Source of the DNA: a virus
Taxonomy: Duplodnaviria; Heunggongvirae; Uroviricota; Caudoviricetes
Length of the DNA stretch: 18,748 bases
Direction: 5' to 3' (one strand)
Virus record (IMG/VR): IMGVR_UViG_2703718816_000016
Span: 1 to 18,748 of that record
The position numbers were made by a program. Positions 12,001 to 15,000 of the stretch are shown piece after piece. Every line of letters begins with the position of its first letter. Within the stretch, counting starts at the first letter, position 1.

Positions 12001-15000
12001 CGATAAGCCATTTACTGGAAATAAGCAGGTTGAATGCGATTACATGTTGTCTGCATTAAGGCGCATGGAGTTGAGAGGGCACCTTAATGAAATATATGAC
12101 GGTGTAATTGTTAATAAGAAAGAAGGAAACGCGGCATGACGACTTTTACCAGAGAGCAGTTAATAGCTCACGCAGAGGAGACTATTGAAGCACAGAGACT
12201 GTGCATACCGGGCACAATCGACAATGACATCATCCGCACATATAAGATGGATATTGCTGTTCTGGAAATCGCACTGGCATCGCTGGCAGCAGAGCCAGCC
12301 GGTAAATTGCATGAATACAAACCAGTGGGACATCAGCGTCTGGTCGACGAGTTAACCATGCTGGTAAAGCAGTTAACCTGGCAACTGAGGAAAACGAAGC
12401 CGGACTGTAAATTGCCGGGTAAGGCGATGGACTACCTGAAGCGAAACGGACTGATAAGCGCAGAGGATGTTTTACGATGACCTGGCCTGGGGCATTCACA
12501 ACGGTAGGGATTGCAATGGCGGTGGTGCTGATTGTGTATTCGATTTGTCGCTGGGGATAAAAACGATTTGCGGGGAAAGGATAGTTAAGTAGAATTGCTG
12601 CGGGTGCTTGAGGCTATCTGTCTCAGGCATGAACACCAAAAGGCAGATAGAGAAAAGCCCCAGTTAACATTGCGCGTCCGGCAAGACGCTTAACATTAAT
12701 CTGAGGCCATATCTATGCTCTACACACGTAGGTTAGCCTCTTACGTGCCGAAAGGCAAGGAGAAGCAGGCTATGAAGCAGCAAAAGGCGATGCTAATCGC
12801 CCTGATCGTCATCTGTTTAACCGTCATTGTGACGGCACTGGTAACGAGGAAAGACCTCTGCGAGGTACGAATCCGAACCGGCCAGACGGAGGTCGCTGTC
12901 TTCACAGTCTACGAACCTGAGGAGTAAGAGACCAGGCGGGGGAGAAATCTCCCGCCACCTCTGATGTGTCAGGCATCCTCAACGCACCCGCGCTTAACCC
13001 GCTTCGGCGGGTTTTGTTTTTTCCTGGCATTCTGGTTTACAATTCGCACGTCAGCCTGAACAACTGACACCTGCTGCGCCAGCAGAGAAAACTTATGGCG
13101 CACGATACCAAATTACACAATTCTGATAATTCAGCCATCTTTGCCAGCAGGCACGGGCGGCGTTTTCACGCGTTTAAAACTCGCTGGTTTCAGCACCCCC
13201 CATGCACAGAAAAGCAGGCTGACTGGATAATTCAGGCTTATCGCAGGCGCGGATATGAGGCTTATAAAACCCTCAGTATTGACTACCGGAAATGGATAGT
13301 TTCTGTGAGACTGCCTTATTCAGAGCACCCACCGCGCCCATCCCGCACATACCAGCAACGTATCTGGAGGTAACGTGCGGGTATTACTTCGACCTGTGCT
13401 GGTGCCTGAACTCGGGCTGGTGGTACTTAAGCCAGGCCGTGAATCCATGCCGGTATTTCACAATACCCGTGTGCTGGTGGAGCCTGAACCGAAAAGCATG
13501 CGCGATCTGCCGTCCGGATCTGTTCCCGCTGTTCGCCAGCCGCTGGCGGAGGATAAATCATTACTGCCATTTTTCAGCGATGAGCGGGTGAACCGTGCTG
13601 CAGGTGGTGCTGGCGCACTGTCTGACTGGCTATTACGTCACGTGAAATCCTGCCAGTGGCCACACGGCGATTATCATCACAGCGAAACCGTCATACATCG
13701 TTACGGTACTGGCGCGATGGTGTTGTGCTGGCACTGTGACAACCAGCTGCGTGACCAGACATCAGATTCACTGGAGCAACTTGCTCAGCAGAATCTGGCT
13801 TCCTGGATGATTTACGTCATTCGGCATGCAATGAATGGTGCGCAGGAGCGGGAGTTGTCGCTGGCTGAACTATGCTGGTGGGCGGTTTGTCATCAGGTGG
13901 CTGATGCGCTTCCGGAGTCTGTATTGCGTCGTTCGCTGGGATTACCAGCGGAAAAAATCCGCTCCGTATACCGTGAGAGTGACATCGTACCGGGAGAACA
14001 GACAGCCATCAGCATACTGAAGCAGCGCACAAAAAATATTGCGCTGCCACTTCACGTCCACCAGCAACAAAATCCACCACAGAAAAAAACGGTTGTCAGT
14101 ATCGCCGTTGATCCGGAGTCTCCTGAATCGTTCATGAAGCGGCCTAAACGTCGCCGTTGGGTTAATGAGAAATACATGCGCTGGGTAAAGACACAGCCGT
14201 GTGCGTGTTGTGGTAAGCCAGCTGACGATCCGCATCACCTGATTGGTCATGGTCAGGGGGGAATGGGAACAAAAGCCCACGATATTTTCACGCTACCGCT
14301 GTGTCGGGAGCATCATAACGAGCTTCATGCGGATCCGCTGGCGTTCGAAGAAAAGCATGGTTCTCAGGTTGATTTAATTTTTCGTTTTCTTGATCACGCC
14401 TTTGCAACCGGTGTGCTTGGGTAAAAGGGGGGTATTGATGTGTATAGAGTTTGTTTTGCCTTACCCGCCGACGGTGAATACTTACTGGCGACGTCGTGGC
14501 AGCACATATTTTGTATCAAAAGCCGGGGAGCGTTATCGCCGGGCAGTGGCGTTTATTGTTCGCCAGCAGCAGTTGAAATTAAGCCTGTCCGGACGGCTGG
14601 CAATAAAAATTATTGCAGAGCCACCGGATAAGCGCCGCCGTGACCTGGACAATATTCTGAAAGCACCGCTGGATGCGCTGACGCACGCGGGGTTGTTAAT
14701 GGACGATGAACAGTTTGATGAAATCAATATTGTACGTGGTCAGCCAGTATCTGGTGGACGGCTGGAAATAAGAATTACAGAGGTGGGTGTGCATGAATAA
14801 CCAGTATTTACAGTTTGTTCGTGAGCAACTCATGATTGCCACTGCAGATCTCAGTGGGTCGACAAAAGGCCAGCTGGAAGCCTGGCAGGAAAATGCCCTG
14901 TTCGATACAGGGCGTTACAGACGCAAAAAAATTCGTTACCGCGATGAGGTAACTGGAAAAATGATCACGCGGGATAATCCCCCGATCCAGGGTAAACAAT

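What the first reader, a model, noticed from the sequence alone, without database searches (positions are those of the whole stretch)
12568..13022. Complete hok/mok/sok-type locus with long-range 5'-3' mRNA complementarity
The Hok toxin ORF is preceded by an overlapping mok frame. The predicted mRNA 5' end (GGGTGCTTGAGG, 12602-12613) is nearly perfectly complementary to a 3' segment (CCTCAACGCACCC, 12977-12989) just before the terminator, as expected for the fold-back-inhibition structure that keeps full-length hok mRNA silent. Unlike K-12 Qin as I recall it, no relBE pair is adjacent. The locus could stabilise the prophage or contribute to phage exclusion.
Basis: partly seen in the sequence, partly recalled or inferred. 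Interest (0 to 1): 0.45.

Follow-up and report, generated by a model that had tools for sequence, protein, structure and literature searches.

The report
Intact hokD-type hok/mok/sok toxin–antitoxin locus
This is an ordinary, complete copy of the well-known hok/sok RNA-controlled toxin–antitoxin module carried by a lambda-like prophage of E. coli; near-identical copies occur in most E. coli genomes and in Shiga-toxin phages, where the module is already annotated and has been tested experimentally.

Summary
Window 12568-13022 holds a complete hok/mok/sok locus. The parts are a 51-aa Hok/Gef toxin (12772-12927), an in-frame mok extension from 12715, a conserved antisense sok promoter with a ~71-nt Sok RNA (about 12723 to 12653, minus strand), and an intrinsic terminator.

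The mRNA 5' end (tac, 12602-12613) pairs with 12977-12989 (fbi) as 12 bp with one bulged C. This pairing is in the minimum-energy fold. It is the best tac target in the whole window. Across 16 hok loci it shows compensatory changes (U-A versus C-G).

Nothing here is new. The 471-bp locus is 100% identical in two E. coli genomes. It is at least 80% covered in 3907 of 5426 genomes, where PGAP annotates it as hokD. It is 94% identical to hokW/mokW/sokW of phage 933W/Sp5, a type I system that has been validated experimentally.

The biological role is unproven. The nearest tested relative helps lysis and phage release on induction; it was not tested for prophage stabilisation or phage exclusion. 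Low interest; already known.

The parts
12568..12595 (+). hok promoter: -35 TTGCGG (12568-12573), 16-nt spacer, -10 TAGAAT (12590-12595)
   Evidence: Read from the sequence. Too weak for the consensus scan, which did not list it. A TAnnnT-type -10 box sits at the same 6-nt distance from the GGG start in most of the 16 hok loci, although the sequence further upstream is unrelated.
12602..13022 (+). full-length hok mRNA (about 420 nt). The 5' end is inferred by homology; the 3' end lies in the T run after the terminator.
   Evidence: The Rfam RF01794 model starts at 12602. The GGGUGCUUGAGG start is conserved across loci. Fold energy is -171.3 kcal/mol, z = -6.6.
12602..12613 (+). tac (translational activator element), the 5' arm of the fold-back stem
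   Evidence: Pairs with 12977-12989 in the MFE fold. Pairs with 12621-12630 in the 39-nt nascent transcript (metastable hairpin), and with 12655-12661 in 5' fragments of 64-144 nt.
12653..12661 (+). ucb, the anti-SD box (AAAAGCCCC)
   Evidence: Pairs with the mok SD (12703-12707) in the full-length MFE fold. Pairs with tac in the 5'-fragment folds and in the Rfam consensus structure. Paired in 94-98% of cells across 16 loci, but almost invariant.
12703..12706 (+). mok Shine-Dalgarno sequence (GAGG)
   Evidence: Lies 8 nt upstream of ATG 12715. GAGG is conserved upstream of the mok ATG in relatives.
12715..12927 (+). mok reading frame (70 aa), in frame with hok and ending at the same stop codon
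   Evidence: An in-frame ATG 57 nt upstream of the hok ATG is also present in 933W mokW, the R1-like locus and 8 other loci. 933W annotates the same frame as mokW.
12653..12723 (-). Sok antisense RNA, about 71 nt: a 5' tail complementary to the mok start and SD, then a long terminator hairpin and a U-rich tail
   Evidence: Mapped from the sokW misc_RNA annotation of 933W through the alignment. Fold energy is -28.6 kcal/mol, z = -3.95. The ends are inferred and were not measured here.
12730..12758 (-). sok promoter: -35 TTGCCT (12758-12753), 17-nt spacer, -10 TAACCT (12735-12730)
   Evidence: Read from the sequence. This stretch is identical in 933W. TTGnnn-N17-TAnnCT is kept in 14 of the 16 loci, including the R1-like one (TTGCGC/TATCCT); E. 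ruysiae hokC and Pantoea depart from it.
12736..12740 (+). dcb (GCCUC), partner of the mok SD in the open form
   Evidence: Pairs with 12703-12707 in the 144-nt fragment fold and in the Rfam consensus. 95% of cells are paired across 16 loci, with no covariation.
12757..12762 (+). hok Shine-Dalgarno sequence (AAGGAG)
   Evidence: Sequence. Homology with K-12 hokD begins about here, at 12759.
12772..12927 (+). hok toxin ORF, 51 aa
   Evidence: Pfam HOK_GEF 78.6 bits. PHROG 251 'MokW-like host killing', E = 2.8e-32. 50 of 51 residues identical to K-12 HokD (A46V) and 47 of 51 to HokW. PGAP names the identical protein HokD.
12935..12956 (+). GC-rich 3' stem-loop, presumed to protect the 3' end of the processed (truncated) mRNA
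   Evidence: A 9-bp stem in the MFE fold. Conserved with compensatory changes across loci (helix 3). It corresponds to the terminal stem of Tr-hok mRNA in R1 (PMC9841398).
12977..12989 (+). fbi (fold-back inhibitory element), the 3' arm
12996..13022 (+). intrinsic terminator: 7-bp stem, GC-rich, UUCG loop, T run
   Evidence: It is the strongest + strand terminator-like site between cro and Q.

Best explanation
[quoted passage not shown] It sits in the region between the replication genes and Q of a lambdoid, Qin-like prophage.

The mechanism below is inferred by homology with plasmid R1 hok/sok and phage hokW-sokW. Sequence-level support found here is noted at each step.

1. A weak promoter (12568-12595) makes a stable mRNA of about 420 nt starting at 12602.
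2. While the RNA is being made, its 5' tac box folds into a local metastable hairpin.
3. Once the 3' end is made, tac pairs with fbi (12977-12989). In this closed form the ucb box (12657-12661) covers the mok ribosome-binding site (12703-12707). Neither ribosomes nor Sok can then engage the mRNA.
4. Slow 3' exonucleolytic trimming back to the stem-loop at 12935-12956 removes fbi. Tac can then pair with ucb, and the mok SD with dcb. This exposes the mok start.
5. Hok translation is coupled to mok translation.
6. A constitutively made, unstable antisense Sok RNA of about 71 nt (promoter 12758-12730, minus strand) binds the mok start region of the trimmed mRNA. The duplex is destroyed, so Hok is made only when Sok supply stops.
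7. Hok is a small inner-membrane peptide that collapses membrane integrity.

Likely role in this prophage, by analogy with hokW-sokW: Hok is released after prophage induction and helps lysis and phage release. Prophage addiction and exclusion of other phages are unproven alternatives.
For: Identity
- Rfam RF01794 scores 116.4 bits against a gathering score of 59, over 12602-12777.
- Pfam HOK_GEF, E = 2.6e-22. PHROG 251, E = 2.8e-32.
- The locus is 100% identical in 2 E. coli genomes and at least 80% covered in 3907 of 5426 genomes. All 25 listed best hits carry a PGAP hokD annotation.
- It is 94.1% identical to the annotated mokW/hokW/sokW of phage 933W.

Structure
- The full-length MFE fold contains tac/fbi (12 bp) and ucb/mok-SD pairing.
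- The duplex is -21.5 kcal/mol, reached by 11 of 2000 shuffles, and is the best site in the window.
- The 39-nt nascent transcript forms the metastable tac hairpin. The 64-144-nt 5' fragments form tac/ucb and SD/dcb stems.

Comparative
- All 16 loci, from Escherichia, Kluyvera, Citrobacter, Erwinia, Pantoea, Photorhabdus and an R1-like plasmid, have a 5'-3' duplex of -17 to -25.6 kcal/mol.
- In the 15 chromosomal or phage loci the 3' site lies 45-50 nt after the stop codon.
- Tac position 4 and its fbi partner are U-A in 8 loci, C-G in 7 and U-G in 1. GAGG/CCUC, GAGA/UCUC and GAAG/CUUC also covary.
- The sok -35 and -10 boxes and the hok -10 box are kept at fixed spacing in most loci.
- The in-frame mok ATG is present in 11 of 16 loci.

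Function of the closest relative
- HokW is toxic. SokW (71 nt) neutralises it.
- SokW disappears after mitomycin C treatment, and HokW is then made in a RecA-dependent way.
- Deleting the locus halves Sp5 phage release (PMC8621323).
- The R1 mechanism is as summarised in PMC9841398.
Against: - No expression data exist for this copy. The transcript ends, the Sok RNA, 3' processing and toxicity are all inferred.
- Thermodynamic folding of the presumed truncated mRNA (ending near 12960) does not switch to the open form; the open form is 4.8 kcal/mol less stable than the MFE. The R1-like control fails the same way under this method, so the test does not discriminate.
- The ucb/SD, tac/ucb and SD/dcb pairs are almost invariant, so they carry no covariation support.
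- The loop just after the mok AUG (GCUCUACAC) lacks the YUNR U-turn motif that 13 of the 16 compared loci have there. Sok binding could therefore be slower in this allele.
- Chromosomal hok loci tested in the past did not mediate post-segregational killing (cited in bioRxiv 10.1101/2025.08.07.668861).
- No PADLOC defence model matches.
Confidence: 0.93

Rival explanations
1. The locus is structurally intact but a functionally silent relic. It is transcribed but never activated, with no 3' processing or no effective translation, as was reported for several chromosomal hok loci.
For: - Earlier tests of chromosomal hokA, hokB and hokC loci found no post-segregational killing and no rifampicin activation (cited in bioRxiv 10.1101/2025.08.07.668861).
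- The YUNR motif is missing from the Sok target loop of this allele.
- The truncated-mRNA fold does not open in silico.
Against: - Every regulatory element is intact, and there is covariation across genera. This argues for continued selection on the RNA structure.
- The 94%-identical hokW-sokW is active in its native prophage (PMC8621323).
- The in-silico failure is shared by the functional R1-type control.
Confidence: 0.15
2. Its main role is prophage addiction (post-segregational killing of cells that lose the prophage) or abortive-infection-type exclusion of other phages. On this view it does not help the phage's own lysis.
For: - R1 hok/sok stabilises plasmids and reduces T4 plating (discussed in PMC8621323).
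- The 933W annotation notes 'prophage maintenance'.
- hok genes are about 4-fold enriched in prophages (bioRxiv 10.1101/2025.08.07.668861).
Against: - No experiment shows prophage stabilisation by a hokD/hokW-type locus.
- The only direct test found faster lysis and 2-fold more phage release (PMC8621323).
- hok is not enriched near defence systems.
- There is no PADLOC hit.
Confidence: 0.25
3. The 5'-3' complementarity is a chance match and the region is just a small ORF with a terminator.
For: A 12-nt GC-rich complement can occur by chance: 11 of 2000 shuffles reach the observed energy.
Against: - It occupies the same position in all 16 compared loci, 45-50 nt after the stop codon in the 15 chromosomal or phage ones, with compensatory changes.
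- It is part of the MFE fold.
- It is the known tac/fbi stem of the family (PMC9841398).
Confidence: 0.01

Closest known systems
hokW/mokW/sokW of Stx2 phages 933W and Sp5 (VT2-Sakai)
   Same: - 94.1% nucleotide identity over 93% of the locus.
- The same hok promoter -10 and -35 boxes, an identical sok promoter stretch, the same tac and fbi, and the same mok frame.
- Hok is identical at 47 of 51 residues.
- A lambdoid phage context.
- A 27-aa hydrophobic ORF lies just upstream in both.
   Different: - The Hok C-terminus differs (TVYEPEE here, VDYESEK in HokW).
- There are several substitutions in the Sok 5' tail and mok start region. HokW has a CUGA (YUNR) in the loop; this copy has CUAC.
- Homology ends just after fbi, so 933W has a different 3' end and lacks this terminator.
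- The flanking genes differ.
hokD (relF) of the E. coli K-12 cryptic prophage Qin
   Same: - Hok is identical at 50 of 51 residues (A46V).
- The hok SD, ORF, 3' stem-loop, fbi and terminator are nearly identical over window 12759-13022.
- Both prophages carry dicB/DicF and ydfABC.
- hok lies upstream of the DUF968 gene (ydfU) and Q (ydfT) in both.
   Different: K-12 lacks the hok promoter, tac, ucb, mok start and sok -10 box, and has relB-relE there instead. K-12 hokD therefore has an fbi with no tac partner, whereas the window has the complete regulatory unit.
hok/sok (parB) of plasmid R1, the archetype, compared through an R1-like IncFII copy (L052)
   Same: The same order of elements: tac, ucb, mok SD, mok ATG 57 nt before the hok ATG, dcb overlapping the sok promoter, hok, 3' stem-loop, fbi. 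Both match Rfam RF01794.
   Different: - Only short stretches are alignable at DNA level.
- This clade has a 16-nt extension of the leader hairpin, which is also the Sok terminator hairpin (alignment).
- The location is a prophage rather than a plasmid.

Membership tests
[quoted passage not shown] | Small (about 50 aa) hydrophobic Hok/Gef toxin ORF | tested here: met
   Pfam PF01848 scores 78.6 bits against a cut-off of 22. PHROG 251, E = 2.8e-32.
[quoted passage not shown] | hok mRNA leader with the family's sequence and structure | tested here: met
   RF01794 scores 116.4 bits against a gathering score of 59, covering the full model 1-157. The model lies on the hok-sense strand and ends at the hok AUG. 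It therefore describes the mRNA leader, not the antisense RNA itself.
[quoted passage not shown] | Overlapping mok reading frame with its own SD upstream of hok | tested here: met
   ATG 12715 with GAGG 8 nt upstream, in frame with hok. The same arrangement is seen in 11 of 16 relatives.
[quoted passage not shown] | Long-range tac/fbi 5'-3' pairing of the full-length mRNA | tested here: met
   Present in the MFE fold. Shuffle test gives 11 of 2000. Covariation: U-A in 8 loci, C-G in 7.
[quoted passage not shown] | Alternative pairings ucb/mok-SD (closed) and tac/ucb plus SD/dcb (open), with a switch after 3' trimming | tested here: inconclusive
   All three pairings are possible and 94-98% of cells are paired across loci, but the pairs are almost invariant. 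The MFE fold of the truncated RNA stays closed, with the open form 4.8 kcal/mol higher. The functional R1-type control behaves the same way.
[quoted passage not shown] | cis-encoded antisense Sok RNA with its own promoter and terminator, covering the mok translation start | tested here: met
   Met at sequence level only. TTGCCT-N17-TAACCT is identical to 933W and conserved in 14 of 16 loci. The 933W sokW annotation maps to 12723-12653. The hairpin plus U tail folds at -28.6 kcal/mol, z = -3.95. Transcription could not be tested here.
[quoted passage not shown] | YUNR (U-turn) motif in the Sok target loop of the mRNA | tested here: not met
   The loop GCUCUACAC (about 12718-12726) has no YUNR. 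13 of the 16 compared loci have one at this place. This feature accelerates binding and does not define the family. Its role is recalled from my own knowledge of Franch et al. 1999 and was not re-read here.
[quoted passage not shown] | Stable 3' stem-loop that defines the end of the processed mRNA | tested here: met
   A 9-bp GC-rich stem at 12935-12956, conserved with compensatory changes (helix 3). The processing itself is not testable here.
[quoted passage not shown] | Hok is toxic and Sok neutralises it | not testable with these tools
   Shown for the 94%-identical hokW-sokW (PMC8621323), not for this copy.
hokD orthologue group (Qin-type prophage hok) | Near-identity to K-12 HokD and the same prophage neighbourhood | tested here: met
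   50 of 51 residues identical. dicB/DicF/ydfABC lie on one side and DUF968 and Q downstream. PGAP names the identical protein WP_000813256.1 HokD. NCBIfam has no HokD-specific model; the Hok subfamily model scores 45 bits, below its cut-off of 73.

The most novel reading that the evidence does not exclude
The most novel reading not excluded concerns this particular allele. It lacks the YUNR U-turn in its Sok target loop, it belongs to the clade with a 16-nt longer Sok hairpin, and it travels with a conserved, unannotated 27-aa hydrophobic ORF (12477-12560). It might therefore be regulated differently from R1 hok/sok. For example, Sok binding could be slower. Read-through transcription from the phage early-right operon, which runs convergent to the sok promoter, could switch off Sok on induction. 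The small upstream membrane peptide could be a functional partner of the module.
Probability: 0.1. Interest if true: 0.3.

Novelty: already known. Interest (0 to 1): 0.08.

Why it matters
It matters little for discovery. The locus is a textbook type I toxin-antitoxin module. Its family, RNA folding pathway, prophage enrichment and nearest relative (hokW-sokW) are all published.

It is useful mainly as annotation. The record should carry mok, the Sok RNA and the hok mRNA elements, not only the hokD CDS that PGAP calls. It also shows what the truncated K-12 hokD looked like before relBE replaced its regulatory half.

The open biological question is general to the family and is not raised specifically by this window: what do prophage hok/sok loci do (lysis timing, addiction or exclusion)?

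Tried and rejected
1. I tried to show the closed-to-open refolding by folding 3'-truncated mRNAs ending between 12960 and 12990. The MFE fold stayed in a closed or metastable form, and forcing tac/ucb cost 1.2-4.9 kcal/mol once the 3' end was at or before 12986. An R1-like functional locus (L052) behaves the same way, so I treat this as a limit of the method and not as evidence against the mechanism.

2. The formal pair count on alignment A2 is only clean for the first six tac/fbi pairs. Escherichia-type loci have a bulged C that Photorhabdus, Pantoea and R1-type loci lack, which shifts the register of the other six pairs. I replaced that half with per-locus duplex predictions.

3. PADLOC returned no hit. 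NCBIfam returned only sub-threshold Hok and HokA hits. These add nothing beyond Pfam and PHROGs.

4. The consensus promoter scan found neither the hok nor the sok promoter; both are below its 9-of-12 threshold. They were located by homology and cross-locus conservation instead.

5. I considered a chance match and a decayed pseudogene. The chance match is rejected on the covariation data and the pseudogene on the intactness of every element.

6. I did not run the very large protein searches or structure prediction. The answer did not depend on them.
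Full report
**What is in the sequence**

GGGTGCTTGAGG lies at 12602-12613 and CCTCAACGCACCC at 12977-12989.

The ORF list gives a 70-aa frame at 12715-12927. Its last 51 codons, from ATG 12772, are the Hok peptide MKQQKAMLIALIVICLTVIVTALVTRKDLCEVRIRTGQTEVAVFTVYEPEE. That peptide matches Pfam HOK_GEF at 78.6 bits and PHROG 251 'MokW-like host killing'.

So 'mok' here is an in-frame N-terminal extension of hok with its own GAGG 8 nt upstream. It is the same frame that 933W annotates as mokW.

Rfam family RF01794 ('sok') matches 12602-12777 on the + strand at 116 bits, against a gathering score of 59. 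That model begins at the hok mRNA 5' end and ends at the hok AUG. It therefore identifies the hok leader and is not direct evidence for the antisense RNA.

**The long-range pairing is real**

- Folding 12602-13022 gives -171.3 kcal/mol, with z = -6.6 against dinucleotide shuffles.
- In that fold 12602-12613 pairs with 12989-12977 as 12 bp with C12983 bulged.
- At the same time the box GCC.C (12657-12661) covers the mok ribosome-binding site G.GGC (12703-12707). This is the published 'closed' full-length hok mRNA: a tac/fbi stem plus the ucb anti-SD box on the mok SD (PMC9841398).
- The tac x 3'UTR duplex is -21.5 kcal/mol. It is matched by 11 of 2000 shuffled 3' UTRs and is the best tac target on the + strand of the whole window.
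- The first 39 nt fold into the metastable tac hairpin.
- 5' fragments of 64-144 nt fold into tac/ucb and mok-SD/dcb stems. This is the 'open' form and also the Rfam consensus structure.

**Comparative support**

A scan of one genome per species with the Hok peptide returned 47 loci. Rfam placed the leader in 16 of the 20 I submitted.

I compared 16 loci: the window, 933W, Kluyvera, E. ruysiae hokC, an Enterobacteriaceae isolate, Citrobacter, Erwinia, Pantoea, six Photorhabdus copies and an R1-like IncFII plasmid.

- Each has a 5'-3' duplex of -17 to -25.6 kcal/mol. In the 15 chromosomal or phage loci the 3' site lies 45-50 nt after the stop codon.
- Tac position 4 and its fbi partner are U-A in 8 loci, C-G in 7 and U-G in 1.
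- GAGG/CCUC, GAGA/UCUC and GAAG/CUUC also change together.
- The other half of the stem cannot be counted on alignment A2, because Escherichia-type loci have a bulge that others lack.
- The ucb/SD, tac/ucb and SD/dcb pairs are 94-98% paired but almost invariant. That is expected for bases that must serve several partners, but it gives no independent proof.

**The antisense gene**

On the minus strand, TTGCCT (12758-12753), a 17-nt spacer and TAACCT (12735-12730) form the sok promoter.

- The stretch is identical in 933W.
- The pattern TTGnnn-N17-TAnnCT is kept in 14 of the 16 loci, including the R1-like TTGCGC/TATCCT.
- The 933W record annotates sokW as a 71-nt RNA. Transferred through the alignment, this is window about 12723 to 12653.
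- That RNA has a free 5' tail complementary to the mok AUG and SD. A long hairpin and a U-rich tail follow. Fold energy is -28.6 kcal/mol, z = -3.95.
- The hairpin is 16 nt longer than the Rfam consensus in the hokD/hokW clade.

The hok promoter (TTGCGG-N16-TAGAAT, 12568-12595) is weak by consensus and is missed by the scan. Its -10 box sits at the same 6-nt distance from the GGG start in most of the compared loci, although the upstream flanks are unrelated.

**How common it is, and what is already known**

- The 471-bp locus is 100% identical in two E. coli chromosomes. At least 80% of it is present in 3907 of 5426 complete genomes, with a median of two hok-type places per genome. PGAP labels it hokD in every best hit listed.
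- It occurs in 79 phage records, mostly Stx phages. In 933W it carries the annotations mokW, hokW and sokW.
- It also occurs on plasmids.
- The window itself is a lambdoid prophage with these features:
  - integrase, exonuclease and dicB/DicF;
  - ydfABC and a cI-like repressor;
  - Cro, YdaT and replication genes;
  - then hok, DUF968, RusA, Q, a methylase and tRNAs.
- K-12 Qin has the same order, but relB-relE abuts hokD.
- Alignment shows that K-12 shares only 12759-13022, from the hok SD through the terminator. K-12 has therefore lost the promoter, tac, ucb, mok start and sok -10 box.

**Function**

- For hokW-sokW of Sp5, Takada et al. showed that HokW is toxic and that sokW RNA (71 nt) neutralises it, partly through RNase III and Hfq.
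- They also showed that sokW disappears after mitomycin C treatment and that HokW is then made in a RecA-dependent way about 1 h before endolysin.
- Deletion of the locus delays growth arrest by about 40 min and halves phage release (PMC8621323).
- A 2025-26 survey found hok about 4-fold enriched in prophages. It recalls that the tested chromosomal hok loci did not give post-segregational killing (bioRxiv 10.1101/2025.08.07.668861).
- The best-supported role for this copy is therefore a lysis and release helper on induction. Addiction and exclusion remain untested.
- One inference of mine, not tested: hok lies on the same strand as the early-right operon, and its terminator is the strongest + strand terminator-like site between cro and Q. 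Read-through transcription on induction would run head-on into the sok promoter. That could explain the loss of Sok. In the lysogen, the terminator would keep hok-promoter transcripts out of Q.

**Weak points**

- Nothing about expression, processing or toxicity of this copy is measured.
- In-silico folding of the presumed truncated RNA does not open. The same is true of a functional R1-type control, so the test does not discriminate.
- The loop after the mok AUG reads GCUCUACAC and lacks the YUNR motif that 13 of 16 relatives have there. This may affect the speed of Sok binding.

**Verdict**

The feature is an already known, very common module. Interest is low.

Noticed in passing
window 12477-12560 (+): An unannotated 27-aa hydrophobic ORF ([27 protein letters not shown]). 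Its ATG overlaps the stop codon of the upstream 114-aa ORF (ATGA). It stays open at 27 aa, with several substitutions, in 933W and other loci. Homology between the window and 933W begins exactly at its ATG, so it seems to travel with the hok module. It has no PHROG, Pfam or PADLOC hit.
   Followed up: partly
window 12910-12913 (+): The Tyr47 codon of hok is followed by G (UACG). This is the TadA recognition sequence reported to allow Tyr-to-Cys recoding in the hokB, hokC, hokD and hokE mRNAs (bioRxiv 10.1101/2025.08.07.668861; located).
   Followed up: partly
window 12602-12777 (+), Rfam RF01794: The Rfam family named 'sok antitoxin' matches the hok-sense strand. Its consensus runs from the hok mRNA 5' end to the hok AUG, so it models the mRNA leader and not the antisense RNA.
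   Followed up: yes
window 4535-4586 (-), 17142-17388 (+), 17496-17693 (+): A DicF sRNA (76.7 bits), three tRNA genes and an STnc100 sRNA (134.6 bits) downstream of the methylase gene. These are typical lambdoid-prophage cargo.
   Followed up: no
window 12996-13022 (+): The hok terminator is the strongest + strand intrinsic-terminator-like site between cro (6427) and Q (14787). It may double as a nin-region-type terminator that insulates Q.
   Followed up: no
E. coli hits H8 and H25; phage hit H36: In some genomes and phages the locus is split into two pieces spanning 1136 bp instead of 471 bp. A 'hypothetical' or 'mobile element protein' is annotated inside, which suggests an insertion of about 665 bp in those copies.
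   Followed up: no
L001 5820-6298 (E. coli SHP24, hok locus 100% identical): A sister prophage with an identical hok locus carries a RelE/ParE-RelB pair next to its immunity region, not next to hok. The window has a cI-like repressor there instead. relBE-type modules therefore occupy different slots in these prophages.
   Followed up: no
L045 1050-1440 (Erwinia sp. CGal63): A hok leader (133 bits) starts about 95 nt after the last of three CRISPR-DR4 repeats. In that genome a hok/sok locus sits right next to a CRISPR array.
   Followed up: no
L019, L024 and phage hit H40: Near-identical hokD-type sequences appear on very short contigs labelled Acinetobacter idrijaensis (275 bp) and Xanthomonas pisi (431 bp), and in an 'Actinobacillus phage' record. 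These are probably E. coli or phage contamination or mislabelling.
   Followed up: no
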